Assembly (NCBI GenBank): GCA_000002445.1
Contig: CH464491.1
Coordinates: 224,001 to 288,000, forward strand
Source of the DNA: Trypanosoma brucei
Taxonomy: Eukaryota
Direction of reading: 5' to 3'
Length of the DNA stretch: 64,000 bases
Part shown: piece after piece, positions 24,953 to 64,000 of the stretch
How positions within the stretch are numbered: position 1 is the first letter of the stretch
How the letters are laid out: each line of letters begins with the position of its first letter
Program-made: the position numbers and the translations under genes
Notes under the pieces: generated by a model
Told to the model about the DNA's origin: nothing
Database searches by the model: none
The model's input: only the letters and a program-made list of their open reading frames with translations

Positions 24953-25588
24953 ATGGATTGGACTGATCGTGTCCTACTAGAGGATGATAACGATATGGGA
25001 AAAAGCATAGTTAGTCACCATGTGCTGATGAACTGTTCACAGAGGTCAAACATCAAGGACAGTAATGTGCAGACATTATCCACGGAGATGCTCCACTGGG
25101 ATGACTACAGGGAGGCCCATGGAATAAACGATGGTACACCGAAGATGGCAGACACATTTCAAAACGCTTGTGAACCATTATTTCAAGGGCATGTTTGCCG
25201 CTCTGGAGGTAGCACCAAAAGGCTTCTTTCCGTTGCAACGAAACCGGTTCTAGGTGAGGGTGGCGATCGAACATTCTGTTCCGAGATGCAGCACTGGGAT
25301 GACTATAGGGTAAAAAATAATATTCAAGACGGGTCTCCAGCTATGCAGTGTCTTTTTCGTCAATTTGACGGTCATGATATGTTCATTCTGGACAGTGGGT
25401 GGAAACTGTTAACGCTGAAACAAATGTGTATTACCTCGACGCGGCAGGCGTATGGTGCAAGCGTTAACCAGCGTGTTTCAGAGATGGTTCGATGGGAGGA
25501 GTCTCAAAACCAGCAAGGGATAAATTGCTTCCCAGCTAGCGGATCTGCAGAGGCAGTTAGTGCCATAACACCTTACAACAGTGGGTGA
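24953..25588 (+). CDS. Small hypothetical protein (211 aa) with an internally duplicated ~21-aa motif.
   Basis: The ATG at 24953 sits right after a polyY tract (24890-24950). The two motif copies are EMLHWDDYREAHGINDGTPKM and EMQHWDDYRVKNNIQDGSPAM, about 80 aa apart. It lies on the + strand in the polycistron and is of uncertain function. Confidence 0.5.
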   Translation: MDWTDRVLLEDDNDMGKSIVSHHVLMNCSQRSNIKDSNVQTLSTEMLHWDDYREAHGINDGTPKMADTFQNACEPLFQGHVCRSGGSTKRLLSVATKPVLGEGGDRTFCSEMQHWDDYRVKNNIQDGSPAMQCLFRQFDGHDMFILDSGWKLLTLKQMCITSTRQAYGASVNQRVSEMVRWEESQNQQGINCFPASGSAEAVSAITPYNSG

Positions 25589-25750
25589 CTACGGAAATTC
25601 TTTTCCCCCCTCTTCCCCTTATTTTGTCGTTCACAATCCTGATTTGCTCCTCGGAATTTCTCTTTGGATTGCTAAGGTGGCTCCCCTTACCTTATTGTTG
25701 TTGTTTTGCTCGCCGCTATCAAGTGACTTCCTTAGTGTACTTAGTCCCTC

Positions 25751-28700
25751 ATGAGCGCAGGATTCGGAGGTGGTTTTGGCCAACCGGCAGCAACGGGATT
25801 TGGTCAGCAGCCTACCGGTGGTTTTGGGCAAGCACCGCAGGGTGGGGCGTTTGGCCAGGTTGCTCCAGCGGCTACTGGTTTTGGTCAGCCCTCTCAGAGT
25901 GCTGTCACCGGAGGTTTCGGGCAGACAAATACTGGTGGTTTCGGACAACCTGCAGCAACTGGTTTCGGTCAACCTGCTCAGGGTGCTGTCACCGGAGGTT
26001 TCGGGCAGACAAATACTGGTGGTTTCGGACAACCTGCAGCAACTGGTTTCGGTCAACCTGCTCAGAGTGCTGTCACCGGAGGTTTCGGGCAGACAAATAC
26101 TGGTGGTTTCGGTCAGCCTGCTCAGGGTGGGTTTGGCCAGACAGCGGCAGCGGCTAACGCCTTTGGACAGGCGGGCCCCTCAGGTGGCTTCGGGCAGACA
26201 AATACTGGTGGATTCGGCCAGCAGTCCAACAGTGGGTTTGGTCAAGCTGGTCGGGGCGCGACAGCCGGATTTGGGCAGCCCGGAACTGGTTTTGGTCAAC
26301 CAGCTACCGGAGGATTCGGTCAAGCAACTTCTGCCTCTCCATTTGGACAAGCAGCGGCAGGCCGCGGTGTTGGTGGTGGTTTTGGTACTGCGGCTGGCAC
26401 AGTTGGTGGTTTTGGGCAGCCTGCTGCGACGGGTGGTTTCGGTCAAACGGCAACTACAGGTGGATTCGGGCAGCCTGCTCAGGGAGCTGCAGCTGGTGGT
26501 TTTGGTCAACCAGCTACCGGAGGATTCGGTCAAGCAACTTCTGCCTCTCCATTTGGACAAGCAGCGGCAGGCCGCGGTGTTGGTGGTGGTTTTGGTACTG
26601 CGGCTGGTACAGTTGGTGGTTTTGGGCAGCCTGCTGCGCCGGGTGGTTTCGGTCAAACGGCAACTGCAGGTGGATTCGGGCAGCCCGCTCGGGGAGCTGC
26701 AGCTGGTGGTTTTGGTCAACCAGCTACCGGAGGATTCGGTCAGGCAACTTCTGCCTCTCCATTTGGACAAGCAGCGGCAGGCCGCGGTGTTGGTGGTGGT
26801 TTTGGTACTGCGGCTGGCACAGTTGGTGGTTTTGGGCAGCCTGCTGCGACGGGCGGTTTCGGTCAAACGGCAACTACAGGTGGATTCGGCCAGCCTGCTC
26901 AGGGAGCAAATACTTTCGGACAGGGGACTCCTTCGGCTGGTGGTTTTGGGCAGGCCGGTCGAGGCGTGACTGGAGGCTTCGGTCAAACTGGCGTGACCGG
27001 TGGTTTCGGGCAAACGGCAACTACAGGCGGATTTGGCCAACCTGCTCAGGGGGCTGCAACCGGTGGTTTTGGTCAAGCTGGTCGGGGCGCAGCGGACGGA
27101 TTTGGTCGACCTGCTCAGGGAGCTGCAGCTGGTGGTTTTGGTCAACCAGCTACCGGAGGATTCGGTCAAGCAACTTCTGCCTCTCCATTTGGACAAGCAG
27201 CGGCAGGCCGCGGTGTTGGTGGTGGTTTTGGTACTGCGGCTGGCACAGTTGGCGGTTTTGGGCAGCCTGCTGCGCCGGGTGGTTTCGGTCAAACGGCAAC
27301 TACAGGTGGATTCGGCCAGCCCGGTCGGGGAGCTGCAGCTGGTGGTTTTGGTCAACCAGCTACCGGAGGTCTAGGGCTCGCGGGCGGAAGTGGTTTTGGC
27401 GCTGCTGCCGGCGCTGGTGGGTTTGGGCAGCAAAGCACTGCTTCCCCGTGGGGTGGTGGTGCCACCCCTGCGGCACCTGTCGATGTGTCTCTCCTGAACC
27501 TTCCGGAGTTTGCCGACAAGCCTTATGGCAACGTTTTACTCTTTGCGCCTGAGAAGCCACCAAAAAAACCAATTTCAGTTGGTCATACACCATCTCCAGC
27601 TGCCCCCTTCAACCCCATCTCGGTACCACGTTACCAACAAAGGATACCGGTGGGTATCCCAGCACCCACAGTGTCCGCTAACGTGAAGCTTCAACCTACG
27701 CCTTTTTCAACCTCAGCCTTATCCTCAGTGGAGCTTCGTGAATTGTTGAACGCTTCAAAAGTTAACTTGGGGGTATCCGATGATGTCCAAAAAATCGACT
27801 CACCGAAGGTCTCGCGGGTGGTGGCAGCTGGTGAGAAGCCGCCTTCACATGATGCGGCGGTCTTTGCGCCTGTGTGCTCAAAAGAGGAGTATATACTGGA
27901 TCCACCTCTAGCCACACTACAGGGGCTTGCGGTTCGACAGTTGCAGGAGGTTTATGGTTTTAGTGTTTACCGCCGGGATGGTAAGTGCTCCGTTCACTTT
28001 CTTGAGCCTGTGAACCTTGTTCGATGTGATATCGCTGAGATCGTTGAGCTTCGTCCTAGTGGTGAAGTTAAGCTTTATCCATGTGTGCAAAACCCTCCCT
28101 CCATCGGCCAAGGTCTCAATGTGAAAGCTCGTGTAACCGTGAACGGTGTTATTGGGACGACAAGCAACGACCTTCTTATCCGCTGCCAGAAAGAAGGTAA
28201 CAGATTTGAGTCTTACGATGTGAACACGGGGACGTGGGTTTACGTGATGAATGTTGGCGACGATGGTCAAAATGAATATGACGATGCTGACCGCGAAGTT
28301 GACATAGTCGAGACTGATACGCAGGTCCAAGATGGTGAGCAGTTTCCTGTTGCCAATGATATTGCTGACGGCGGGGTGCGTGCTATTTCCCAGCTGGACA
28401 CATGTGCCCAATTGAAAAGGTCTGATCCACCGTCACCACCATTTCTACAACAGCAGCAGCAGGTGCCCGTATTGCACCAAAATGAAGCGGTTTCAGCATT
28501 GTCGTTTTCACGGTATGCCCCATTTGACGATCAGTCTCTTATTCTTCCGCAACGCACGCAGAGGGTGTCTGTGCTGCGACAAGCTGTGCACCGCCCTGCT
28601 GCGGATACAACCTCGGGGATCTCCGACTTCGAACTGCCGTACACGCTTCCCAGCCCCAAGAAAACCCCTCTCTGTGAGCGGAAGGGCCCGTTGGTCGTGA

Positions 28701-30412
28701 AGGAACCCTACGCGAAGGCACACGGGCCTGTTTACGTTGTGAAGAGGGAGGACAGTAAGATGTACGAAATGAATGCAAGCGTGGTTTCGCGGGGCGCAAT
28801 GGCAAGTCTGAGTCGGAGTTTCCGATGTGGGTGGTGCACCGGAGGGCGTCTGGTTGCCCCAATGTTCGCCTGGGTTCGTGACGGGACAGAGAGTAGGCAT
28901 TCTGTGGATGAAGTTCTCGGCTCGCGAGTGGTTATGTCAACTGTTTACTTTGCCCATGCAACAAGTAAGCACTACTTGCAGAGTTGCGCCATATCAGTAC
29001 TGCGCGCGCTGTGTCGGCACGCGCACAGGGTGGATGCCTCTTCGGACAAGGAAGGCTTTTTCCCGCTTCTGGAGCTAGGATTGTGCCGAGACACCGGCTC
29101 CACCTCCCTTTCGACCGAAAAGTTACGTGAGGTTATCGCTGCTGTCGATGCCGTTCGTTTCGACGGAGCTTCTGCAGTGGGGGAGTCCACGGCACGGCAA
29201 GCCAAAACAATTCTTTCTCTACTCGATGCCCTTTATGGATTGCCTGATGCCGACGAGGCAGACAAAAATGCCATTACTGAGAGGCGTTACCTCACTCAAC
29301 TGCGGAGGCGGAACCTGAATTCGTGGTTGAAGACGGAGCTGGAATATATGGATTTGTGGACCGACCTGGACGTGGATGCGAACCCATCGCAAAAGTTACT
29401 TCGGAAGTTGCTGTGCGGCAAGCTACGGGAGGCCTCGTCTGTGGCGAAGGCATTGGGGAGCACAGAACTTTCACGCGTTGTAGGAATATGTGGAGAGGGG
29501 AACCATTTTGGGAGCTACGTGCAGACGTCCGACAATAGTTGCATAGACGAAGCACTTGGCATCCGGGAGCGTGTGGTGAGCCTCCTCTCTGGTATTGTTG
29601 AGCCTTTTGTCTCTCAGCCCCAGTACGCGTGGGCTGAGGACGAAAAGGGTGGCCGCACCGTTGCGAAGGTGCCATTGGCAGCAACATGGAAGCAGTTGCT
29701 GGGAGTATTTGCCTTCTACGGCTGCACACCTGACAGCTCCGCGGAGGAGACAATTGACTGTTTTCTCAAACGGCTTCGAGCACCAACCTCACGTCGTGAG
29801 AATTCCTTTCCTCCATACGCTGAACGTATCTCAGCTGACAAACTAGGAACAGGTCGCGGTCGGAGTTTCGTTTCCCTCGGGGAGTGGTTTCCTGATGCCG
29901 CGCTGAGCCTGTTGGAGGGTTTCGCGATGGGTGTGGCTCCCGCCGCCACTGCACTTCATCCACATTCATCAAGTTACTGTGCAACGGATTACTTGACACC
30001 ATTCATAATTATAGTAAGTGTCCGTGCTTTGAAGTTACAGCGCACAGACACCTATGACGACGCTGAAACAAAAGCACTTCTGGGGTTTGCCGCAGCGCTG
30101 GAGTGTCTTAGTGATGCGTGGTTCTGGGCTTTACTGCCGCTCCATATGATAGTTGACGACAAGTGCCGGGCTGTGGCTGTTGAGCAGTGTTTGCGCCGTA
30201 ACGCCCACCGGTTCCAGGGAGGGGCGTGCCGCACCAACACGGACTACGTACATTTGGCAGAGCTGTTGAAAATTAATGCTCGGCTGTTAGATGTGGAGAT
30301 GCTGTTAGAGAAAGTCCCGGCAGATGCACCTGTGAATGCGCCAAGCATTCGCACTCACTCGTCTCTGCAGGAAGCGCTTCACCGTTTCAGTCGGGGGTTT
30401 ACAAAGAGATGA
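25751..30412 (+). CDS. NUP158: FG-repeat nucleoporin of the Nup98-96 fusion type (TbNup158-like), 1553 aa. It has N-terminal GGFGQ repeats, a central Nup98-type autoproteolytic-domain fold, and a Nup96-like alpha-helical C-terminal region.
   Basis: The first 550 aa are almost entirely GGFGQ(P/T)A repeats. They are followed by ...GFSVYRRDGKCSVHFLEPVNLVRCDIAEIVEL...GQGLNVKARVTVNGV...NTGTWVYV, which aligns with the human Nup98 autoproteolytic domain (...GEGLNRKAEVTLDGV...ETGSWVFKVSHFSKY). After that comes a large helical domain. There is an ATG at 25751. Confidence 0.85.
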   Translation: MSAGFGGGFGQPAATGFGQQPTGGFGQAPQGGAFGQVAPAATGFGQPSQSAVTGGFGQTNTGGFGQPAATGFGQPAQGAVTGGFGQTNTGGFGQPAATGFGQPAQSAVTGGFGQTNTGGFGQPAQGGFGQTAAAANAFGQAGPSGGFGQTNTGGFGQQSNSGFGQAGRGATAGFGQPGTGFGQPATGGFGQATSASPFGQAAAGRGVGGGFGTAAGTVGGFGQPAATGGFGQTATTGGFGQPAQGAAAGGFGQPATGGFGQATSASPFGQAAAGRGVGGGFGTAAGTVGGFGQPAAPGGFGQTATAGGFGQPARGAAAGGFGQPATGGFGQATSASPFGQAAAGRGVGGGFGTAAGTVGGFGQPAATGGFGQTATTGGFGQPAQGANTFGQGTPSAGGFGQAGRGVTGGFGQTGVTGGFGQTATTGGFGQPAQGAATGGFGQAGRGAADGFGRPAQGAAAGGFGQPATGGFGQATSASPFGQAAAGRGVGGGFGTAAGTVGGFGQPAAPGGFGQTATTGGFGQPGRGAAAGGFGQPATGGLGLAGGSGFGAAAGAGGFGQQSTASPWGGGATPAAPVDVSLLNLPEFADKPYGNVLLFAPEKPPKKPISVGHTPSPAAPFNPISVPRYQQRIPVGIPAPTVSANVKLQPTPFSTSALSSVELRELLNASKVNLGVSDDVQKIDSPKVSRVVAAGEKPPSHDAAVFAPVCSKEEYILDPPLATLQGLAVRQLQEVYGFSVYRRDGKCSVHFLEPVNLVRCDIAEIVELRPSGEVKLYPCVQNPPSIGQGLNVKARVTVNGVIGTTSNDLLIRCQKEGNRFESYDVNTGTWVYVMNVGDDGQNEYDDADREVDIVETDTQVQDGEQFPVANDIADGGVRAISQLDTCAQLKRSDPPSPPFLQQQQQVPVLHQNEAVSALSFSRYAPFDDQSLILPQRTQRVSVLRQAVHRPAADTTSGISDFELPYTLPSPKKTPLCERKGPLVVKEPYAKAHGPVYVVKREDSKMYEMNASVVSRGAMASLSRSFRCGWCTGGRLVAPMFAWVRDGTESRHSVDEVLGSRVVMSTVYFAHATSKHYLQSCAISVLRALCRHAHRVDASSDKEGFFPLLELGLCRDTGSTSLSTEKLREVIAAVDAVRFDGASAVGESTARQAKTILSLLDALYGLPDADEADKNAITERRYLTQLRRRNLNSWLKTELEYMDLWTDLDVDANPSQKLLRKLLCGKLREASSVAKALGSTELSRVVGICGEGNHFGSYVQTSDNSCIDEALGIRERVVSLLSGIVEPFVSQPQYAWAEDEKGGRTVAKVPLAATWKQLLGVFAFYGCTPDSSAEETIDCFLKRLRAPTSRRENSFPPYAERISADKLGTGRGRSFVSLGEWFPDAALSLLEGFAMGVAPAATALHPHSSSYCATDYLTPFIIIVSVRALKLQRTDTYDDAETKALLGFAAALECLSDAWFWALLPLHMIVDDKCRAVAVEQCLRRNAHRFQGGACRTNTDYVHLAELLKINARLLDVEMLLEKVPADAPVNAPSIRTHSSLQEALHRFSRGFTKR
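25911..26110 (+). repeat. An 84-bp (28-codon) FG repeat, about 3 copies, within the nucleoporin gene.
   Basis: gaggtttcgggcagacaaatactggtggtttcgg recurs at 25911, 25995 and 26079. The encoded unit is GGFGQTNTGGFGQPAATGFGQPAQ(G/S)AVT. Confidence 0.9.
26291..27370 (+). repeat. A 210-bp (70-codon) higher-order FG repeat within the nucleoporin gene. There are four near-identical copies (starts 26291, 26501, 26711, 27137) plus a partial fifth (27347).
   Basis: The exact 50-nt string tttggtcaaccagctaccggaggattcggtcaagcaacttctgcctctcc recurs at those positions. The encoded unit is FGQPATGGFGQATSASPFGQAAAGRGVGGGFGTAAGTVGGFGQPAATGGFGQTATTGGFGQPAQGAAAGG. Confidence 0.9.
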
Positions 30413-55197: not shown

Positions 55198-58100
55198 ATG
55201 GCGTGTCAAGAGGTAAATAGTGAAGTTCCTGACAGCGATGTAGTTTTCCATGACACCATTTTTATGAGAAACAACAAACACGTCTCGGAGCAATGGATTC
55301 GTATTGGCGAATTGTACCCCAATGGTGCGAAGGAATCATTGCTCCCGGAGACGTTTGCACGCGAACAGTTCGGACAAGGAAGTCACTATGAGTGCTTCAT
55401 GCTTTCTGCCCTCGCCACTTTAGTAAAATTCCCCGACATCATTCGGAACTGCTTCGTGTCGAGGAATGTGCGGCGTGACGGGAGGTACACTTTTCAGTTC
55501 TTTCGTGACAAGGAATGGGTGAAGGTTGAAATTGATGACTCTGTTATGCTTGAGGATGATGAAGTTTTGTTCATCCGATCACCCACTAGTCATTGGTGGC
55601 CGCTACTGTTTGAGAAGGCTTATGCGAAATTCTACACCAGCTACGACAATTTGGAGGGTTGTACCTTACAGGAGGCGTACCATGACTTAACTGGCAACCC
55701 CGTGCTCAACATCCCCATGGACGCGAGGCTTGCCAAGGCTGCAGGTGTGGATGTGACTGGAGGTCAGTATTGGCTTGACCTCGCACAGAAGCTGCAATCC
55801 GGCCAGTTTGTTGGTTCGCTGCTGACGAGGGAAACGGACCTTGAGTCGATGGGTTTGCAGAGTGAGCAACAATACGGGATACTAGAGATTTTTTCGCTAA
55901 CTGGGACATCATCTGTAAGCGACATTGTGATTCACCTATACAACCCATTCGAGGACGAGGAATTCACGTACAAAGGCCCGCTGAACAGTAAGGACACGGA
56001 GTGGACCCCCAAACTCCGTGAAAAGTATAACGTGGATGATACGCACTCCATATTTCTTCCGCTACACGTTGCCCTGAAGATCGTAAATTCGGTGCAACTT
56101 TGCTACATATCCCCTATTGATGGTGACGCGACGTATTTTGATGATGAGTGGAAGGGTGAAACTGCGGGAGGGAACCCCACGAGTGTAACATGGCGCAAGA
56201 ACCCCCTATACTGCGTCAGGAACGCTGGGATCAACCCCGTGGAACTGGTTGTCGTGATTAAGCAGAAGGATCAACGTCATCTTTGGACATCAGAAGATGA
56301 TGAACTGATGTACAAAAGGTGTGGCATTGTTGTTGTTCAGAGTACCACAGTCACACAAATACCGACATATTTTGTAACAGGGAACAATCACAAAGCAATA
56401 CACAAGAGTTTGTTCCTAAACTCTCGTGAAGTGTCCAGTTTCGTTCGGATACCACCTAATTCCTTGTGCTACCTTGTACCTTCTTGCATGAAGAAGGGAG
56501 CGGAGAGTGCATTTACGCTCGCACTGTACCGGATGAAGCACCAAAATTATACGGAGTTCAATGTTAGTCGACTTGCTCTGCCGAAATTGCTGTGGCACAA
56601 TCCTATCCAAGAGAAACTCCAACTTCAAATGTTCACAAAGGATAGAAGGGATTTTTACGTCGATATACCCACTGACATTCACATTTTGATGCATCAAGAA
56701 AAACCGTTTGTAAGTGAGAAGACCGGTGGTGATGCTATGGTTCAGGATTACGTTGGTGTCTACCTTTATGATGACACGGACCGTAAGATTGGAGGTGTGC
56801 ACGCTGCGACGAATTTCAGGGAAACAAGTGTCTTGCATCGCCTTCCTCGTAGTGGTCGTTATGCTATTTCAATTACGTGTCCCCGGGCAAGTGGTGAAGT
56901 ACCCATTGCTCTCACAATTGTTGGTTCTCCTGATGCTAATGTTCGTATTGTTGAGGCTCCTGATGATGCCTCCATGTTTGATGATGAGGATGATATTGCA
57001 GAGGGTGATGAGGATGCTACTGTTTCTAATCCCATTGACTACATTCCTGTTGCTGGTGGAGGGCAGGTGTTCACTGAGGTACCCGATAGTACGGTCCCAT
57101 TTGAAGATAAACGTTTCATGGTTGATAATAAGATTATGACGAATGAACCGTGGATCCACATTGGTGACCTTTATCCTGAGGGAAAGACGCGCTCACTTTT
57201 GCCGGAGCGTCTGAGTCGTGAGCAGTTTGAGCAGGGTGAACACTTCGAGTGCTGTTGTCTGACCGCTTTTGCAGCGCTGGTGGAGCACCACCCCAACGTA
57301 ATTCGTGACGCGTTTGTGACGAAGGCTGTACGACGTGACGGACGGTACACGTTCCGGTTCCACCGCTACGGTCAGTGGGTGAAGGTGGAGATTGATGATC
57401 GTATTCCCCTTCTTGGTGGGAAAACTTTATTCTGTCGATCATCTGATGGTTATTGGTGGCCACTACTACTAGAGAAGGCGTATGCTAAGTTCTACACACT
57501 ATACCAAAATATTGAGGGATGTACGCTGCGGGAACTGTTTTACGACCTAACAGGGCTTCCTGTGCTTAGCATTCCGATGGAGTTGAAACTCGCGAAGGCT
57601 GTACTGTGTGATGTTGATGATGTGAGTTTTTGGGTTGAGCTCAGTGAGGGTCTGAAGGATTGTGCGTGTGCTGCCGTTGCACGCCCCGGTTTCGATGACA
57701 CCCTTGGTTTGTCCAATGGGCAAGAGTACGCTGTCCTTGATGTGGTATCGTTAACGGATGGTGAGGCCTCTTCCATATCTGATCTTGTTGTAAAACTTCA
57801 TAATCCGTTTCTGGAGACTGAGTACAAAGGCCCTATGAATGCAAGCGATGCTGCGTGGTCGTCTGAGCTGCGTACCCGTCTATGTCCGGAGCGACGGGAT
57901 ACTATCTACATTCCCGTGGAAGTTTTCTGCAATGCATTTCTCACTGTGGAGAAAGTTATGGTGCGTGGTCTTATTGTTCCCGGGTGGCAATTCAACAGTG
58001 AATGGGGTGAGGGCACGAACGGTGGCAATCCAACACTTGTGACGTGGCGTGAGAACCCCATTTACGTTGTGCAGAACACTGCGGATACCCCGTTACAGAT

Positions 58101-61100
58101 TATTGCAATGATTGGGCAACCTGATCAGCGTCGCGTGCTACACCTTCTCCCCGAGCAAGAGGTAAACTACGTTCAATGTGGGTTGTCGCTTGCCAAGAGT
58201 ATTAAGGGTGAATCGATCCCGACATACTTGCTGACACCCAATAGTCATGTTTTGATTCATAAGGGCCGTTTCTTTTCTTACCGTGAAGTAGCTGATGTTA
58301 TTGTTGTTCCGGGGAATAGCCTCACTTTTCTCGTTCCAAGCGCGATGTTTCGTGACAAAACGAAGTTTCTTCTCTCGTACTGGTACTCTAGTGCGAACGA
58401 CAGGAACAGTGTTACAATTGAGCGTCTTAATTTGGGTGTTGCGCGGCATCTTCCAGCCATTGCCCATCTCACTGTCAAAGAGAGGGTGAGGGAGCAAGTG
58501 GATTTTATTGTCGATGTTCCCACTGACGTTCATATCCTTCTTCGTCAAGAAAAACCCTGCCACGGTGACAGTGTTTCAAATGCCTTGACAGATGATTTTC
58601 TTGCCATGTATTTGTATAATTCTGAAGATGATCAACTCAGTGGTGTTGTGACCGCGACCAACTACAGGGAGATGGGAATAGTTCATCACCTCTCCGAAGG
58701 GGGGAGATATGTAATTTACGTTGTTTGCCCTCGTGCTGAGGGTGAGGTTCCTTTGAGAATAGAAATTGTCGCTATGCAGTCGGCCCAGGTTCGCACAGTG
58801 GAAGCATTACCCTTGTGCAAATCAATCTTGCAGGTGGAAAAAGAGCTAAAGCTGAGTACTGGGTCCTTGCCATACTCACCACTCCTTATAAGCGAAGGGG
58901 ATCTCAAAAATTTCTCGGGGCGACTATCGGACAACTCTATGCGGTTGGAGAGTTCCAGTGACCCTGACTTATCTTTCCTTGGAGCCGAGGTGGAAGGAAT
59001 TCCCACCCTGGATCTCACTCTGATGAGCGACTCTTCATTTTCTGAGATGGCACGTGAGCGCATGCAATTAAAGCGGGATCCCATTGCTAATGCGAGTCGT
59101 TTGGCTGAGGTTGAAGATAGTATGGTGGCACGTGCGAATGCTATTGCCAAGGAAATGCATTTGAGAGAGCGGCGATATCTGAACCCTGAGCCTGAGGGTG
59201 TCCCCCTTGAGTTGCTTCCTTTAAACGAGGACGAAGTTGTGAGTGAGAAGGAGGACCGCCTCCGTGCGCTGAATCGTAAGGAGCAGAAGGACGAGAAACT
59301 GTTACGGAGTCTTGAGGACGTGATAGCGGACCGTGTACACGAGATCGCGAGGGAGCTGAAGGTGAGTGAACGTGATCTGTTCCTTGATCCCACTCCAGGA
59401 GGTTTCCCTGTAGCGCAGCTTCCGCTGGACGAAGACGATGTGTTTCATTCACTCGAAGTGGAGCGACTGCAACTGCGACTGCGTCAGGATTCCCTTGCTA
59501 GCAAAGAAAGAATTGCTGAACTGGAAAACATGATGAATTGTAGGACTACGGAGCTCATCGACAAAATGAAAGAAGAGATTAGGAAGTTTCTTGACCCCAC
59601 CCCACTAGGAATACCACTTGAAGAACTAAAACTGGACGAACACGACAATTATGTTGCAAAAGAGATAAGCCTAATTGGAATGATAAGAAAAGGGAAAAAA
59701 GAATCACAGGAAGCAATTTCAATTCGGGAACAGTTACTTCAAATAGAATACGCTGTTGCCAAGGAACACTTAAACAACTTTAGGATACAGTACCTCGGAG
59801 ACGACATTGAGGGTCGCCAACCGAACGAATTAAACTTAGAAGAAGAAGAAACTTATATGCAGATGGAGAGAAAATTGATTGAATACTACAACAGTAATCA
59901 ACGTAACAGCGAAGAAGCGCAGAAAATAAGAGTAAATCTACTTCACAAAGCTACAAAAGCATCAAAGCATTTAAATCGATCCGAGAGAAAAAACTACATT
60001 AAGAGAGACAGACTCGAGATTTCAATATCAAACATTCCGCTTGATGACAACGAACAGTTCACAACATTAGAAGCGGAACGAATAAGAAAAAAAAGAAATA
60101 AAAAAAATTCAGAGGTTGAACAAATAGAAATGGAACTCAACAATATAGCACAACAGCTAGCTAAACTGAAAGCATCCGATAGCCGCAGCTTCCTTGATCC
60201 TATGCCAGAAGGAGTGCCGTTGAGTGAGCTTGAATTGGACAAGGATGAGAAGTTCAGCACCATGGAAGAGGAGCGTCGTAAGCTTATTGCTGAGGATCGT
60301 GAAGATAATGCAACACGCATTGCTGAATTAGAAGCAGCAATGAACGAGTATTCACATGAGCTTGCTAAACTGAAAGCATCCGATAGCCGCAGCTTCCTTG
60401 ATCCTATGCCAGAAGGAGTGCCGTTGAGTGAGCTTGAATTGGATAAGGATGAGAAGTTCAGCACCATGGAAGAGGAGCGTCGTAAGCTTATTGCTGAGGA
60501 TCGTGAAGGTAATGCTGCGCGCATTGCTGAATTAGAAGCAGCAATGAACGAGCATTCACATGAGCTTGCTAAACTGAAAGCATCCGATAGCCGCAGCTTC
60601 CTTGATCCTATGCCAGAAGGAGTGCCGTTGAGTGAGCTTGAATTGGATAAGGATGAGAAGTTCAGCACCATGGAAGAGGAGCGTCGTAAGCTTATTGCTG
60701 AGGATCGTGAAGATAATGCAACACGCATTGCTGAATTAGAAGCAGCAATGAACGAGTATTCACATGAGCTTGCTAAACTGAAAGCATCCGATAGCCGCAG
60801 CTTCCTTGATCCTATGCCAGAAGGAGTGCCGTTGAGTGAGCTTGAATTGGATAAGGATGAGAAGTTCAGCACCATGGAAGAGGAGCGTCGTAAGCTTATT
60901 GCTGAGGATCGTGAAGGTAATGCTGCACGCATTGCTGAACTAGAAGCTGCAATGAACGAGCATTCACATGAGCTTGCTAAACTGAAAGCATCCGATAGCC
61001 GCAGCTTCCTTGATCCTATGCCAGAAGGAGTGCCGTTGAGTGAGCTAGGATTGGATAAGGATGAGAAGTTCAGCACCATGGAAGAGGAGCGTCGTAAGCT

Positions 61101-64000
61101 TATTGCTGAGGATCGTGAAGGTAATGCAACACGCATTGCTGAATTAGAAGCAGCAATGAACGAGCATTCACATAAGCTTGCTAAACTGAAAGCATCCGAT
61201 AGCCGCAGCTTCCTTGATCCTATGCCAGAAGGAGTGCCGTTGAGTGAGCTTGAATTGGATAAGGATGAGAAGTTCAGCACCATGGAAGAGGAGCGTCGTA
61301 AGCTTATTGCTGAGGATCGTGAAGGTAATGCTGCACGCATTGCTGAACTAGAAGCTGCAATGAACGAGCATTCACATGAGCTTGCTAAACTGAAAGCATC
61401 CGATAGCCGCAGCTTCCTTGATCCTATGCCAGAAGGAGTGCCACTAAGTGAGCTTGAATTGGATAAGGATGAGAAGTTCAGCACCATGGAAGAGGAGCGT
61501 CGTAAGCTTATTGCTGAGGATCGTGAAGGTAATGCTGCACGCATTGCTGAATTAGAAGCAGCAATGAACGAGCATTCACATGAGCTTGCTAAACTGAAAG
61601 CATCCGATAGCCGCAGCTTCCTTGATCCTATGCCAGAAGGAGTGCCGTTGAGTGAGCTTGAATTGGACAAGGATGAGAAGTTCAGCACCATGGAAGAGGA
61701 GCGTCGTAAGCTTATTGCTGAGGATCGTGAAGGTAATGCTGCACGCATTGCTGAATTAGAAGCAGCAATGAACGAGCATTCACATGAGCTTGCTAAACTG
61801 AAAGCATCCGATAGCCGCAGCTTCCTTGATCCTATGCCAGAAGGAGTGCCGTTGAGTGAGCTTGAATTGGATAAGGATGAGAAGTTCAGCACCATGGAAG
61901 AGGAGCGTCGTAAGCTTATTGCTGAGGATCGTGAAGGTAATGCTGCACGCGTTGCTGAACTAGAAGCTGCAATGAACGAGCATTCACATGAGCTTGCTAA
62001 ACTGAAAGCATCCGATAGCCGCAGCTTCCTTGATCCTATGCCAGAAGGAGTGCCGTTGAGTGAGCTAGGATTGGATAAGGATGAGAAGTTCAGCACCATG
62101 GAAGAGGAGCGTCGTAAGCTTATTGCTGAGGATCGTGAAGGTAATGCTGCACGCATTGCTGAACTAGAAGCAGCAATGAACGAGCATTCACATGAGCTTG
62201 CTAAACTGAAAGCATCCGATAGCCGCAGCTTCCTTGATCCTATGCCAGAAGGAGTGCCGTTGAGTGAGCTTGAATTGGATAAGGATGAGAAGTTCAGCAC
62301 CATGGAAGAGGAGCGTCGTAAGCTCATTGCTGAGGATCGTGAAGGTAATGCTGCACGCATTGCTAGACTTGAGGAGAGGATGAACGAACTTTCCCGTGAA
62401 CTCGCAAGAATGAAGTTGAAGGATCGCAGCTTCCTTGATCCTATGCCAGAAGGAGTGCCACTAAGTGAGCTTGAATTGGATAAGGATGAGAAGTTCAGCA
62501 CCATGGAAGAGGAGCGTCGTAAGCTCATTGCTGAGGATCGTGAAGGTAATGCAACACGCATTGCTGAATTAGAAGCAGCTATGAACGAGCATTCACATGA
62601 GCTTGCTAAACTGAAAGCATCCGATAGCCGCAGCTTCCTTGATCCTATGCCAGAAGGAGTGCCGTTGAGTGAGCTTGAATTGGATAAGGATGAGAAGTTC
62701 AGCACCATGGAAGAGGAGCGTCGTAAGCTCATTGCTGAGGATCGTGAAGGTAATGCAACACGCATTGCTGAATTAGAAGCAGCAATGAGCGAGCATTCAC
62801 ATGAGCTTGCTAAACTGAAAGCATCCGATAGCCGCAGCTTCCTTGATCCTATGCCAGAAGGAGTGCCACTAAGTGAGCTTGAATTGGATAAGGATGAGAA
62901 GTTCAGCACCATGGAAGAGGAGCGTCGTAAGCTTATTGCTGAGGATCGTGAAGGTAATGCTGCACGCATTGCTGAACTAGAAGCAGCTATGAACGAGCAT
63001 TCACATGAGCTTGCTAAACTGAAAGCATCCGATAGCCGCAGCTTCCTTGATCCTATGCCAGAAGGAGTGCCGCTAAGTGAGCTTGAATTGGATAAGGATG
63101 AGAAGTTCAGCACCATGGAAGAGGAGCGTCGTAAGCTTATTGCCGAGGATCGTGAAGGTAATGCTGCACGCATTGCTGAACTAGAAGCAGCGATGAACGA
63201 GCATTCACATGAGCTTGCTAAACTGAAAGCATCCGATAGCCGCAGCTTCCTTGATCCTATGCCAGAAGGAGTGCCGTTGAGTGAGCTTGAATTGGACAAG
63301 GATGAGAAGTTCAGCACCATGGAAGAGGAGCGTCGTAAGCTTATTGCTGAGGATCGTGAAGGTAATGCTGCACGCATTGCTGAACTAGAAGCAGCAATGA
63401 ACGAGCATTCACATGAGCTTGCTAAACTGAAAGCATCCGATAGCCGCAGCTTCCTTGATCCTATGCCAGAAGGAGTGCCGTTGAGTGAGCTTGAATTGGA
63501 TAAGGATGAGAAGTTCAGCACCATGGAAGAGGAGCGTCGTAAGCTTATTGCTGAGGATCGTGAAGGTAATGCTGCACGCATTGCTGAACTAGAAGCAGCA
63601 ATGAACGAGCATTCACATGAGCTTGCTAAACTGAAAGCATCCGATAGCCGCAGCTTCCTTGATCCTATGCCAGAAGGAGTGCCGTTGAGTGAGCTAGGAT
63701 TGGATAAGGATGAGAAGTTCAGCACCATGGAAGAGGAGCGTCGTAAGCTTATTGCTGAGGATCGTGAAGGTAATGCAGCACGCATTGCTGAACTAGAAGC
63801 AGCAATGAACGAGCATTCACATGAGCTTGCTAAACTGAAAGCATCCGATAGCCGCAGCTTCCTTGATCCTATGCCAGAAGGAGTGCCGTTGAGTGAGCTT
63901 GAATTGGATAAGGATGAGAAGTTCAGCACCATGGAAGAGGAGCGTCGTAAGCTTATTGCTGAGGATCGTGAAGGTAATGCTGCACGCATTGCTGAATTAG
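55198..64000 (+). CDS. ClpGM6: Giant calpain-like protein with two tandem calpain-type cysteine-protease-like domains followed by a 68-aa (204-bp) tandem repeat array (ClpGM6 / GM6-antigen type). It is 5'-partial only in the sense that the ORF runs off the window end. More than 2,930 codons are open.
   Basis: It is not in the supplied ORF track (no stop in the window). There is an ATG at 55198 after an A-rich leader and polyY tract (54880-54925). I translated frame 1 from 55198 by hand and found no stop to 64000. The two homologous about 640-aa units begin ...WIRIGELYPNGAKESLLPE...QGSHYECFMLSAL...RDGRYTFQFF...WWPLLFEKAYAKFYTSY... and ...WIHIGDLYPEGKTRSLLPE...QGEHFECCCLTAF...RDGRYTFRFH...WWPLLLEKAYAKFYTLY.... 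These are the calpain domain II landmarks (QGxxGDCW -> QGxHxECx; WVxLLEKAYAK). Then come about 19 near-identical 68-aa repeats (...ELAKLKASDSRSFLDPMPEGVPLSELELDKDEKFSTMEEERRKLIAEDREGNAARIAELEAAMNEHSH...). Confidence 0.85.
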   Translation, partial: MACQEVNSEVPDSDVVFHDTIFMRNNKHVSEQWIRIGELYPNGAKESLLPETFAREQFGQGSHYECFMLSALATLVKFPDIIRNCFVSRNVRRDGRYTFQFFRDKEWVKVEIDDSVMLEDDEVLFIRSPTSHWWPLLFEKAYAKFYTSYDNLEGCTLQEAYHDLTGNPVLNIPMDARLAKAAGVDVTGGQYWLDLAQKLQSGQFVGSLLTRETDLESMGLQSEQQYGILEIFSLTGTSSVSDIVIHLYNPFEDEEFTYKGPLNSKDTEWTPKLREKYNVDDTHSIFLPLHVALKIVNSVQLCYISPIDGDATYFDDEWKGETAGGNPTSVTWRKNPLYCVRNAGINPVELVVVIKQKDQRHLWTSEDDELMYKRCGIVVVQSTTVTQIPTYFVTGNNHKAIHKSLFLNSREVSSFVRIPPNSLCYLVPSCMKKGAESAFTLALYRMKHQNYTEFNVSRLALPKLLWHNPIQEKLQLQMFTKDRRDFYVDIPTDIHILMHQEKPFVSEKTGGDAMVQDYVGVYLYDDTDRKIGGVHAATNFRETSVLHRLPRSGRYAISITCPRASGEVPIALTIVGSPDANVRIVEAPDDASMFDDEDDIAEGDEDATVSNPIDYIPVAGGGQVFTEVPDSTVPFEDKRFMVDNKIMTNEPWIHIGDLYPEGKTRSLLPERLSREQFEQGEHFECCCLTAFAALVEHHPNVIRDAFVTKAVRRDGRYTFRFHRYGQWVKVEIDDRIPLLGGKTLFCRSSDGYWWPLLLEKAYAKFYTLYQNIEGCTLRELFYDLTGLPVLSIPMELKLAKAVLCDVDDVSFWVELSEGLKDCACAAVARPGFDDTLGLSNGQEYAVLDVVSLTDGEASSISDLVVKLHNPFLETEYKGPMNASDAAWSSELRTRLCPERRDTIYIPVEVFCNAFLTVEKVMVRGLIVPGWQFNSEWGEGTNGGNPTLVTWRENPIYVVQNTADTPLQIIAMIGQPDQRRVLHLLPEQEVNYVQCGLSLAKSIKGESIPTYLLTPNSHVLIHKGRFFSYREVADVIVVPGNSLTFLVPSAMFRDKTKFLLSYWYSSANDRNSVTIERLNLGVARHLPAIAHLTVKERVREQVDFIVDVPTDVHILLRQEKPCHGDSVSNALTDDFLAMYLYNSEDDQLSGVVTATNYREMGIVHHLSEGGRYVIYVVCPRAEGEVPLRIEIVAMQSAQVRTVEALPLCKSILQVEKELKLSTGSLPYSPLLISEGDLKNFSGRLSDNSMRLESSSDPDLSFLGAEVEGIPTLDLTLMSDSSFSEMARERMQLKRDPIANASRLAEVEDSMVARANAIAKEMHLRERRYLNPEPEGVPLELLPLNEDEVVSEKEDRLRALNRKEQKDEKLLRSLEDVIADRVHEIARELKVSERDLFLDPTPGGFPVAQLPLDEDDVFHSLEVERLQLRLRQDSLASKERIAELENMMNCRTTELIDKMKEEIRKFLDPTPLGIPLEELKLDEHDNYVAKEISLIGMIRKGKKESQEAISIREQLLQIEYAVAKEHLNNFRIQYLGDDIEGRQPNELNLEEEETYMQMERKLIEYYNSNQRNSEEAQKIRVNLLHKATKASKHLNRSERKNYIKRDRLEISISNIPLDDNEQFTTLEAERIRKKRNKKNSEVEQIEMELNNIAQQLAKLKASDSRSFLDPMPEGVPLSELELDKDEKFSTMEEERRKLIAEDREDNATRIAELEAAMNEYSHELAKLKASDSRSFLDPMPEGVPLSELELDKDEKFSTMEEERRKLIAEDREGNAARIAELEAAMNEHSHELAKLKASDSRSFLDPMPEGVPLSELELDKDEKFSTMEEERRKLIAEDREDNATRIAELEAAMNEYSHELAKLKASDSRSFLDPMPEGVPLSELELDKDEKFSTMEEERRKLIAEDREGNAARIAELEAAMNEHSHELAKLKASDSRSFLDPMPEGVPLSELGLDKDEKFSTMEEERRKLIAEDREGNATRIAELEAAMNEHSHKLAKLKASDSRSFLDPMPEGVPLSELELDKDEKFSTMEEERRKLIAEDREGNAARIAELEAAMNEHSHELAKLKASDSRSFLDPMPEGVPLSELELDKDEKFSTMEEERRKLIAEDREGNAARIAELEAAMNEHSHELAKLKASDSRSFLDPMPEGVPLSELELDKDEKFSTMEEERRKLIAEDREGNAARIAELEAAMNEHSHELAKLKASDSRSFLDPMPEGVPLSELELDKDEKFSTMEEERRKLIAEDREGNAARVAELEAAMNEHSHELAKLKASDSRSFLDPMPEGVPLSELGLDKDEKFSTMEEERRKLIAEDREGNAARIAELEAAMNEHSHELAKLKASDSRSFLDPMPEGVPLSELELDKDEKFSTMEEERRKLIAEDREGNAARIARLEERMNELSRELARMKLKDRSFLDPMPEGVPLSELELDKDEKFSTMEEERRKLIAEDREGNATRIAELEAAMNEHSHELAKLKASDSRSFLDPMPEGVPLSELELDKDEKFSTMEEERRKLIAEDREGNATRIAELEAAMSEHSHELAKLKASDSRSFLDPMPEGVPLSELELDKDEKFSTMEEERRKLIAEDREGNAARIAELEAAMNEHSHELAKLKASDSRSFLDPMPEGVPLSELELDKDEKFSTMEEERRKLIAEDREGNAARIAELEAAMNEHSHELAKLKASDSRSFLDPMPEGVPLSELELDKDEKFSTMEEERRKLIAEDREGNAARIAELEAAMNEHSHELAKLKASDSRSFLDPMPEGVPLSELELDKDEKFSTMEEERRKLIAEDREGNAARIAELEAAMNEHSHELAKLKASDSRSFLDPMPEGVPLSELGLDKDEKFSTMEEERRKLIAEDREGNAARIAELEAAMNEHSHELAKLKASDSRSFLDPMPEGVPLSELELDKDEKFSTMEEERRKLIAEDREGNAARIAEL
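60150..64000 (+). repeat. A 204-bp (68-codon) tandem repeat array, about 19 copies in the window and continuing past the window end. It is in-frame coding sequence of the ClpGM6-like gene.
   Basis: The string cttgctaaactgaaagcatccgatagccgcagc recurs at 60361, 60565, 60769 ... 63823 with an exact spacing of 204 bp. One unit (about 62341-62541) is 201 bp and diverged. There are a few recurrent SNVs between units. Confidence 0.95.

What the first reader, a model, noticed from the sequence alone, without database searches (positions are those of the whole stretch)
25751..27500. FG-nucleoporin repeat region contains nucleotide-identical higher-order repeats (210 bp x4.5 and 84 bp x3)
Beyond the expected degenerate GGFGQ periodicity, there are long blocks that are identical at the DNA level. 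These are the 70-codon unit at 26291, 26501, 26711, 27137 and 27347 (partial), and the 28-codon unit at 25911, 25995 and 26079. Such identity implies recent expansion or ongoing concerted evolution. The FG-domain length is therefore likely to be polymorphic between strains and alleles and to be under-represented in short-read assemblies. The spurious long ORFs in other frames and strands (25770..26969 +, 26180..27355 -, 25631..26056 -) are by-products of this repetition.
Basis: seen in the sequence. Interest (0 to 1): 0.5.

Follow-up and report, generated by a model that had tools for sequence, protein, structure and literature searches.

The report
Repeat blocks in trypanosome nucleoporin Nup158
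The flagged stretch is the already characterised FG-repeat domain of the Trypanosoma brucei nuclear-pore protein TbNup158, and its near-identical 210-bp and 84-bp DNA blocks are real but ordinary products of repeat duplication and gene conversion.

Summary
The window is T. brucei brucei TREU927 chromosome 11. ORF 25751-30412(+) is an exact match to TbNup158 (XP_828191.1), the uncleaved Nup98-96 orthologue.

The repeats are real but not strictly identical:
- Four 210-nt units (26291, 26501, 26711, 27137) are 92-98% identical, and a 74-nt core is exact in all four.
- A diverged 216-nt unit (26921-27136) separates units 3 and 4.
- The "partial" fifth unit is only 23 nt.
- The 84-nt array (25874-26121) has 3.0 copies at 95% identity.

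Codon identity at same-residue sites is 93.5%, against about 40% expected, so the DNA identity exceeds what the protein repeat requires.

- Concerted evolution is supported. Strain differences are about 8-fold denser in the FG region, 19 of 20 in-unit SNPs fall on sites that vary between units, and each Trypanosoma species has its own homogenised unit.
- Short-read assemblies do break or collapse here, in all four truncated models checked.
- Length polymorphism is not seen among three complete T. brucei-group assemblies (1553/1553/1552 aa). It is seen in T. cruzi and T. vivax.
- The alternative-frame ORFs are artefacts of stop-codon depletion.

This is a known gene and an ordinary mechanism, so interest is low.

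The parts
25751..30412 (+). TbNup158 gene (Tb11.03.0140), 1553 codons plus stop. It is the uncleaved Nup98-96/Nup145 orthologue.
   Evidence: ORF, translation. The product equals P0014 (XP_828191.1, T. b. brucei TREU927) exactly. Pfam Nup96 scores 5.8e-28 and Nucleoporin2/S59 scores 3e-15. Named TbNup158 in PMC2742445.
25751..27493 (+). FG-repeat domain, about 581 aa with 58 FG motifs, mostly GGFGQ. Composition is G 34%, A 19%, Q 11%, T 10%, F 10%. The only charged residues are 10 Arg and 2 Asp.
   Evidence: PMC2742445 gives the FG (GGFGQ) region as residues 5-550. PMC4283134 used residues 1-565 with 58 FG motifs and found that the domain phase-separates.
25874..26121 (+). 84-nt (28-codon) tandem array, 3.0 copies at 95% identity. 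The protein unit is TGFGQPAQ(S/G)AVTGGFGQTNTGGFGQPAA.
   Evidence: TRF, family D3. A 35-nt core is exact three times. Units 25911 and 25995 differ at 1 of 84 positions.
26291..26920 (+). Three tandem 210-nt (70-codon) units at 26291, 26501 and 26711, each with seven FG motifs. The last 13 nt of unit 3 diverge.
   Evidence: Pairwise identity is 91.9-97.6%. The 74-nt core is exact in every unit. Codon identity is 93.5% against 38-43% expected.
26921..27136 (+). Diverged 216-nt unit between units 3 and 4, about 70-75% identical to the others over 144 alignable nt. It contains its own 27-nt and 36-nt sub-repeats.
   Evidence: Alignment. TRF rows 26963-27015 and 27032-27151.
27137..27369 (+). Fourth 210-nt unit (27137-27346) plus the first 23 nt of a further unit. 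Window 27116-27325, i.e. 210 nt equivalent to this unit, is missing from the T. equiperdum OVI contig.
   Evidence: 97% identity to units 1 and 2. Searches show the exact 210-nt gap, flanked by the duplicated string CAGGGAGCTGCAGCTGGTGGTTTTGGTCAACCAGCTACCGGAGG.
27884..28243 (+). Nup98-type S59 beta-sandwich domain (aa 712-831). It lacks the catalytic His-Phe/Tyr-Ser/Thr tripeptide.
   Evidence: Pfam. In the alignment to yeast Nup116 CTD, 'GTWVYVMNV' aligns with 'GTYVFIVNH', so Val-Gly-Asp sits where H-F-S is expected. PMC2742445 and PMC4758718 report no cleavage.
29393..30289 (+). Nup96-type alpha-solenoid domain (aa 1215-1513).
   Evidence: Pfam PF12110, 98 bits.
25770..26969 (+). Spurious 399-codon ORF in frame +1 of the FG domain (Leu/Val/Arg-rich). 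Not a gene.
   Evidence: Listed. Frame +1 has 4 stops in the 1680-nt FG region, against 18 in the next 1680 nt of the same gene.
26180..27355 (-). Spurious 391-codon antisense ORF (Thr/Ser/Arg-rich). Not a gene.
   Evidence: Listed. One antisense frame has 2 stops against 19 in the adjacent non-repeat sequence. Every gene called around the orthologous loci is on the + strand.
25631..26056 (-). Spurious 141-codon antisense ORF over the start of the FG domain.

Best explanation
The region encodes the intrinsically disordered, cohesive GGFGQ-type FG domain of TbNup158. TbNup158 is the T. brucei Nup98-96/Nup145 orthologue and stays uncleaved as part of the outer ring of the nuclear pore.

The 210-nt and 84-nt blocks are multi-repeat units of 7 and 3 FG motifs. 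I infer that they were duplicated as blocks by homology-driven unequal exchange or replication slippage. This happened in the T. brucei lineage, after it split from the other sampled Trypanosoma species and before the brucei, gambiense and equiperdum lineages separated. Since then, short-tract gene conversion between the units has kept shuffling the few variant sites, which is concerted evolution.

Selection appears to act on bulk properties, not on the sequence of any single repeat. These properties are a domain of about 520-580 residues, about 53-58 FG motifs, and almost no charge apart from sparse Arg in AGRG context. Units can therefore turn over freely.

Shown here: the gene identity, the repeat anatomy, the excess codon identity, the pattern of SNPs coinciding with between-unit variants, the species-specific units, and the assembly breaks.
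Inferred: the recombination mechanism and the selective constraint.
Taken from the literature: the barrier function.
For: Identity:
- The product is an exact match to XP_828191.1, with Pfam S59 and Nup96 domains.
- PMC2742445, PMC4758718 and PMC4283134 describe TbNup158. They report a GGFGQ FG domain, no autoproteolysis, outer-ring (TbNup89 complex) membership, and an FG domain (residues 1-565) that phase-separates at about 300 nM.

Duplication at the DNA level:
- Exact repeat blocks reach 134 nt, against at most 35 nt in 500 shuffles that preserve the protein.
- Codon identity at same-residue sites between units is 93.5%. The expectation from FG-domain codon usage is 37.7%, and GFGQ motifs at non-homologous positions give 43%.

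Age:
- The same four units and the same unit-3 junction are present in TREU927, DAL972 and T. equiperdum IVM-t1.

Ongoing exchange:
- Strains differ at 20-25 sites in the 1700-nt FG part and at 4-5 sites in the remaining 2962 nt.
- Of 20 strain SNPs inside the four units, 17 have both alleles present at the same offset of another unit. Nineteen lie on the 19 of 210 offsets that already vary between units in TREU927.
- In DAL972, unit 3 carries the unit-2 haplotype across offsets 32-185 but keeps its own junction. This looks like a conversion tract of at least 154 nt.

Turnover between species:
- T. cruzi has a 159-nt unit (x6.5, 86% matches) and T. melophagium a 111-nt unit (x4.6, 98%).
- Units are 92-100% identical within a species and 43-62% identical between species.
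- FG-domain length (524-581 aa) and FG count (53-58) stay similar in the complete models.

Length changes in whole repeats:
- Two T. cruzi assemblies differ by indels of 39, 7, 14, 7 and 14 aa, all within the FG domain.
- The OVI contig lacks exactly one 210-nt unit.
Against: - The SNP pattern could come partly from assembly or consensus artefacts. Reads may have been mis-assigned among 92-98% identical units, or the two alleles of a diploid may have been merged into a mosaic consensus. I could not inspect reads.
- No change in unit number was seen among the three complete T. brucei-group assemblies, so unequal exchange is not frequent on that time scale.
- The constraint on FG number and domain length rests on four species and is a correlation only.
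- The 210-nt gap in OVI lies in a contig that also ends in the array, so collapse by the assembler is at least as likely as a real allele.
Confidence: 0.85

Rival explanations
1. The near-identical blocks, or at least the shuffling of variants between units and strains, are artefacts of assembling a repetitive region. The true locus would have a different number of units or cleanly distinct units.
For: Repeats of this kind clearly defeat assemblers:
- The OVI contig ends in unit 3 and lacks one unit.
- Contigs of T. cruzi marinkellei and T. rangeli end in the FG domain, and T. grayi has an N gap there.
- IVM-t1 carries three 1-nt deletions within 15 nt that look like long-read errors.
- The nearby ClpGM6 repeat in this same reference is documented as collapsed (PMC4121973).
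Against: - Three independently produced assemblies on megabase-scale contigs (5.26, 4.53 and 3.65 Mb) agree on unit number, order and junctions, and all keep an intact 1552-1553-codon frame.
- The array is only about 1.1 kb and the units differ at diagnostic sites, so long Sanger or long-read data can span several units.
- Other species show analogous arrays in chromosome-scale contigs.
Confidence: 0.1
2. The units are kept alike by purifying selection on a specific 70-residue protein module, for example a defined binding site for a transport receptor or a scaffold nucleoporin. Recent duplication or gene conversion would then not be needed.
For: - The 70-aa units are nearly identical as protein.
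- The AGRG motif recurs about once per unit in every species.
Against: - Selection on protein sequence would not preserve synonymous codons, yet 93.5% of same-residue codons are identical against about 40% expected.
- The 70-aa unit is absent from T. cruzi, T. vivax and T. melophagium, which have different units.
- The domain is low-complexity and was shown experimentally to act as a cohesive disordered phase (PMC4283134).
Confidence: 0.04
3. One of the long alternative-frame or antisense ORFs (25770-26969 +, 26180-27355 -) is a real overlapping gene, and the repeat conservation reflects dual coding.
For: ORFs of 399 and 391 codons exist.
Against: - Stop depletion in exactly these frames follows from the restricted GGN-TTY-GGN-CAR codon set.
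- Their products are low-complexity Leu/Val/Arg or Thr/Ser/Arg strings.
- All genes called in this locus and in its orthologues are on the + strand.
- The repeat units differ between species, so these ORFs cannot be conserved.
Confidence: 0.01

Closest known systems
TbNup158 (Tb11.03.0140; XP_828191.1), Trypanosoma brucei nucleoporin
   Same: It is this gene. The 1553-aa product is identical. [quoted passage not shown]
   Different: Nothing differs. The passages I read by term search in three TbNup158 papers do not mention the DNA-level 210-nt and 84-nt higher-order units or their conversion signature. I did not read those papers in full.
Nup98-96 (vertebrates) / Nup145 (yeast) precursor nucleoporins
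   Same: The domain order is the same: a charge-depleted cohesive FG domain, an S59 beta-sandwich, then a Nup96 alpha-solenoid. PDB Nup116, Nup98 and Nup145N domains match at E-values from 3e-5 to 7e-10. The FG domain phase-separates like other Nup98 FG domains (PMC4283134).
   Different: The catalytic H-F/Y-S/T tripeptide is replaced by V-G-D, so the protein is not cleaved. The motif is GGFGQ with Gly/Ala-rich spacers, not GLFG.
Regular higher-order repeats in other nucleoporins and repetitive trypanosome proteins, for example TbNup149 with three near-identical repeated domains and ClpGM6 with 68-aa repeats
   Same: These are tandem coding repeats of high DNA identity that recombination homogenises and assemblers collapse. 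TbNup149 is described in PMC4758718. ClpGM6 lies in this same window at 60155-64000, with 204-nt units, 18.9 copies inside the window and 96% identity.
   Different: The Nup158 array is short (about four units), less perfect (92-98%), and nested inside a more degenerate short-period FG repeat.
Rapid evolution of FG domains with conserved composition (Denning and Rexach 2007, cited in PMC2742445)
   Same: The FG-domain sequence diverges fast while composition and FG density are retained (text).
   Different: That work concerns substitution rates in protein sequence. What is seen here is block duplication and conversion at the DNA level. I know the 2007 paper only from citation and memory and did not read it.

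Membership tests
Nup98-96 / Nup145 nucleoporin family | Nup98-type S59 beta-sandwich (autopeptidase fold) domain | tested here: met
   Pfam PF04096 at 3e-15, 57.1 bits against a cut-off of 28.4, aa 712-831. PDB Nup116, Nup98 and Nup145N domains match at E-values from 3e-5 to 7e-10.
Nup98-96 / Nup145 nucleoporin family | C-terminal Nup96/Nup145C alpha-solenoid domain | tested here: met
   Pfam PF12110 at 5.8e-28, 98.2 bits against a cut-off of 25, aa 1215-1513.
Nup98-96 / Nup145 nucleoporin family | N-terminal charge-depleted FG-repeat domain | tested here: met
   58 FG motifs in 581 aa, with only 10 Arg and 2 Asp as charged residues. It was used as a Nup98-type FG domain in PMC4283134.
Nup98-96 / Nup145 nucleoporin family | Catalytic His-Phe/Tyr-Ser/Thr tripeptide and self-cleavage into Nup98-like and Nup96-like halves | tested here: not met
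   '...GTWVYVMNVGDD' aligns with Nup116 '...GTYVFIVNH', so V-G-D sits where H-F-S is expected. PMC2742445 reports no cleavage by Western blot and mass spectrometry. This is a known feature of the trypanosome orthologue and does not remove it from the family.
Nup98-96 / Nup145 nucleoporin family | Localisation to nuclear pores and membership of the outer-ring complex | not testable with these tools
   Literature only: GFP puncta at the nuclear envelope (PMC2742445) and co-purification with the TbNup89 complex (PMC4758718).
Tandem coding repeats under concerted evolution | Units more alike within a genome than the protein repeat requires (synonymous sites shared) | tested here: met
   Codon identity is 93.5% against 38-43% expected. 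The longest exact repeat is 134 nt against at most 35 nt in shuffles.
Tandem coding repeats under concerted evolution | Units more alike within a species than between species | tested here: met
   92-100% within T. brucei, T. cruzi and T. melophagium, against 43-62% between them. Unit lengths differ: 210, 159 and 111 nt.
Tandem coding repeats under concerted evolution | Variants exchanged between units (gene conversion) since populations split | tested here: inconclusive
   17 of 20 strain SNPs reuse alleles from other units, and DAL972 unit 3 shows a tract of at least 154 nt. Read-level data to exclude mis-assembly or merged alleles were not available.
Tandem coding repeats under concerted evolution | Copy-number polymorphism between strains | tested here: inconclusive
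   Not seen in three complete T. brucei-group assemblies. One 210-nt unit is missing in the OVI short contig, where collapse and real deletion cannot be told apart. Whole-repeat indels are present between T. cruzi and between T. vivax strains.

The most novel reading that the evidence does not exclude
The higher-order units may be more than neutral debris of unequal exchange.

- In every complete Trypanosoma Nup158, essentially the only charged residues in the FG domain are 7-10 arginines.
- Nearly all of these sit in an AGRG(T/A/V/M) context, about one per higher-order unit.
- The FG count stays at 53-58 although unit length and sequence are completely replaced between species.
- The two T. 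cruzi alleles differ by five indels yet both have 57 FG motifs.

The reading not excluded is that selection maintains a super-repeat grammar, with one GRG-type repeat (a possible arginine-methylation or cohesion-tuning site) per block of 4-7 plain GGFGQ repeats. Block duplication and conversion would then be the way this grammar and the total FG valency are kept constant.
Probability: 0.15. Interest if true: 0.4.

Novelty: already known. Interest (0 to 1): 0.15.

Why it matters
- The gene, its FG domain and its function are already described, so nothing changes for nuclear-pore biology.
- The practical value is for annotation. Seven of the twelve full or partial Trypanosoma Nup158 models retrieved lack all or most of the FG domain. 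In each of the four I checked, the cause is a contig end or an N gap inside these repeats, so "short" Nup158 orthologues should not be read as biology.
- The long alternative-frame ORFs here should not be annotated as genes.
- The locus is a compact example of concerted evolution inside a phase-separating disordered domain. With phased long reads it could be used to ask how strongly FG number and domain length are constrained.

Tried and rejected
1. I searched the 5.8-billion-protein collection with the FG domain alone (aa 1-600) to find other alleles or fragments. None of 8000 word-sharing candidates scored E <= 1e-20, so this gave no extra T. brucei alleles. Low-complexity queries are not useful there.
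2. An Rfam scan of the whole window at gathering thresholds found nothing.
3. Three literature searches found nothing relevant. The terms were FG repeat + nucleoporin + concerted evolution; intragenic tandem repeat + nucleoporin; and FG domain + Nup98 + repeat + gene conversion. Absence from this library does not prove the point is unpublished.
4. I considered whether the identity could follow from protein-level constraint. The codon-identity and synonymous-shuffle tests rejected this.
5. I considered overlapping or antisense genes for the long ORFs. Frame-specific stop depletion and low-complexity products rejected this.
6. I did not run structure prediction. The region is a low-complexity disordered domain and a model would be uninformative.
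7. T. congolense, the closest outgroup, could not be used to date the expansion. Its only model (932 aa) starts downstream of the FG domain.
Full report
**What is there**

The flagged interval lies at the 5' end of a 1553-codon ORF, 25751-30412 on the + strand. Its product matches XP_828191.1 of Trypanosoma brucei brucei TREU927 exactly (P0014). Pfam finds a Nup98-96 S59 domain at aa 712-831 (3e-15) and a Nup96 domain at aa 1215-1513 (5.8e-28).

This is TbNup158 (Tb11.03.0140), described by DeGrasse et al. 2009 (PMC2742445) as FG (GGFGQ) 5-550, beta-sandwich 713-851 and alpha-solenoid. It does not self-cleave. In my alignment to the yeast Nup116 C-terminal domain, 'GTWVYVMNV' pairs with 'GTYVFIVNH'. 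Val-Gly-Asp therefore occupies the place of the catalytic His-Phe-Ser, in agreement with PMC2742445 and PMC4758718.

Obado et al. 2016 place it in the outer-ring TbNup89 complex. Schmidt and Görlich 2015 showed that residues 1-565 (58 FG motifs) phase-separate with a critical concentration of about 300 nM (PMC4283134). The neighbours are an AAA ATPase upstream and ATG9 downstream. This order is the same in T. b. gambiense, T. equiperdum, T. cruzi, T. melophagium and T. grayi.

**Checking the observation**

The higher-order repeats are real.

- TRF reports an 84-nt array at 25874-26121 (3.0 copies, 95% matches) and a 210-nt array at 26287-27369 (5.1 copies, 75% matches overall).
- The unit said to start at 27347 shares only 23 nt.
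- Between units 3 and 4 lies a 216-nt diverged unit (26921-27136), about 70-75% identical over 144 alignable nt.
- A 74-nt core (26324-26397) is present exactly four times, with none expected by chance.
- The longest exact blocks are 134, 120, 111 and 110 nt.
- For the 84-nt unit, 25911 and 25995 differ at one base. A 35-nt core is exact three times.

So the wording 'nucleotide-identical' and 'x4.5' overstates the case, but the coordinates and the phenomenon are correct.

**Is the DNA identity more than the protein repeat would give?**

Yes.

- I permuted synonymous codons among identical residues, which keeps the protein sequence unchanged. The longest exact DNA repeat then averages 21 nt, with a maximum of 35 in 500 shuffles, against 134 observed.
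- At sites where two units encode the same residue, 93.5% of codons are identical. The expectation from FG-domain codon usage is 37.7%. The observed value between GFGQ motifs at non-homologous positions is 43%.

The blocks are therefore duplicated DNA, not convergent protein repeats.

**Comparison between strains**

DNA for the same gene was fetched from three assemblies: T. b. gambiense DAL972 (L001), T. equiperdum IVM-t1 (L002) and T. equiperdum OVI (L003).

- The three complete genes have 1553, 1553 and 1552 codons. They share the same four units, the same diverged unit and the same junctions.
- The expansion therefore predates the split of these lineages, and no change in unit number is seen among them.
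- The one-codon difference in IVM-t1 comes from three single-base deletions within 15 nt. These look like long-read errors.
- Substitutions are concentrated in the repeats: 20-25 differences in the first 1700 nt against 4-5 in the remaining 2962 nt.
- Inside the four units, 17 of 20 strain differences have both alleles present at the same offset of another unit.
- Nineteen of those 20 fall on the 19 of 210 offsets that already vary between units in TREU927.
- In DAL972, unit 3 carries the unit-2 haplotype from offset 32 to 185 while keeping its own 3' junction.

This is the pattern expected from short-tract gene conversion between units. It could also arise from reads mis-assigned among near-identical units, or from merging two alleles into one consensus. 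I could not examine reads, so this step is inferred and not shown.

**Short-read assemblies**

- The T. equiperdum OVI contig starts at window position 26864, inside unit 3. It also lacks exactly 210 nt between two copies of a 45-nt duplicated string.
- The T. cruzi marinkellei contig ends 309 nt upstream of its truncated gene model, and the T. rangeli contig 177 nt upstream. Both ends lie in GGFGQ-coding sequence.
- T. grayi has 272 N inside the FG domain.

Seven of the twelve full or partial Trypanosoma models retrieved lack all or most of the FG domain. All four that I examined are truncated by an assembly break in the repeats.

**Other species**

- Each species with a complete model has its own higher-order unit. 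T. cruzi has a 159-nt unit (6.5 copies, 86% matches; a 138-nt version reaches 96%). T. melophagium has a 111-nt unit (4.6 copies, 98%). T. vivax has yet another protein-level arrangement.
- Units are 92-100% identical within a species and only 43-62% identical to the best-matching place in another species.
- Bulk properties stay similar. The FG domain is 524-581 residues with 53-58 FG motifs. The T. vivax Y486 model (471 aa, 46 FG) lacks N-terminal sequence present in the other strain.
- The only charged residues are 7-10 Arg, almost always in AGRG(T/A/V/M) context.
- Two T. cruzi assemblies differ by indels of 39, 7, 14, 7 and 14 residues, all in the FG domain, yet both have 57 FG motifs. Two T. 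vivax models also differ by repeat-sized indels.

Length variation by whole repeats therefore does occur in this gene family, although it was not seen within the T. brucei group.

**Alternative-frame ORFs**

The ORFs at 25770-26969 (+), 26180-27355 (-) and 25631-26056 (-) exist. In the 1680-nt FG region, three of the five non-coding frames have only 4, 1 and 2 stops. The next 1680 nt of the same gene has 13-35 stops per non-coding frame. The predicted products are Leu/Val/Arg-rich or Thr/Ser/Arg-rich low-complexity strings.

**Mechanism and verdict**

The best explanation has three parts:

- block duplication of multi-FG units by unequal exchange or slippage in the T. brucei lineage;
- continued gene conversion among the units;
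- selection acting on domain length, FG valency and charge depletion, not on individual repeat sequences.

The gene and its function are known. Tandem coding repeats under concerted evolution are a familiar phenomenon, and the same window holds a much larger example in ClpGM6. Three term searches of the paper library returned nothing on gene conversion in FG domains, so the conversion signature may be undescribed. It is still not surprising.

I rate interest at 0.15 and classify the feature as already known.

Noticed in passing
window 55198-64000 (+), repeats from 60155 to the window end: An open frame running off the window encodes a calpain-like protein (Pfam Peptidase_C2 2.3e-71, Calpain_III). 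From 60155 it continues as a 204-nt (68-aa) tandem repeat, 18.9 copies at 96% identity. The unit contains the peptides KASDSRSFLDPMPE and ERRKLIAEDREGN that were used to raise anti-ClpGM6 antibody in PMC4121973. This is therefore ClpGM6 (fragment Tb11.57.0008). That paper says the repeat array is collapsed in the reference, with at least 55 repeats by Southern blot.
   Followed up: partly
P0011 (Logan assembly, organism unknown; not in the window): This is a distant Nup158 homologue (32% identity over 54% of the C-terminal query, with Pfam S59 and Nup96). Its N-terminal repeat domain uses GGWGK, GGFGK and GGYG motifs in Ala/Pro-rich spacers and contains Lys. It is a Trp-for-Phe, less charge-depleted variant of a Nup98-type domain.
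   Followed up: no
window 25751-27493 and the orthologous FG domains (P0009, P0016, P0005, P0019): Essentially the only charged residues in the FG domains are 7-10 Arg. Nearly all are in AGRG(T/A/V/M) context, about one per higher-order unit. The motif is conserved across species although the units themselves are not.
   Followed up: partly
L002 (T. equiperdum IVM-t1), equivalent to window 27114-27127: Three single-base deletions within 15 nt give a net loss of one codon and five changed residues (AQGAA becomes VR-SC). This is probably a long-read indel artefact, not a real allele.
   Followed up: partly
P0007, P0010, P0017, P0018 (public annotations, not in the window): Several truncated Nup158 orthologues carry misleading names in public records. 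T. conorhini, T. cruzi marinkellei and one T. cruzi model are called 'ATP-dependent RNA helicase'. Another T. cruzi model is called 'trans-sialidase'. The ones shown carry Pfam S59 and Nup96 domains, and the other two are members of the T. cruzi Nup158 cluster.
   Followed up: no
window 24953-25588 (+): A 211-aa ORF lies immediately upstream of TbNup158. It has no Pfam match but is conserved in position (204-211 aa) in T. b. gambiense, T. equiperdum, T. cruzi and T. melophagium. T. grayi has a 185-aa gene in the same position.
   Followed up: no
whole window: GC skew is positive in almost every 2-kb bin, and all identified genes are on the + strand. This fits a single trypanosome polycistronic transcription unit.
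   Followed up: no
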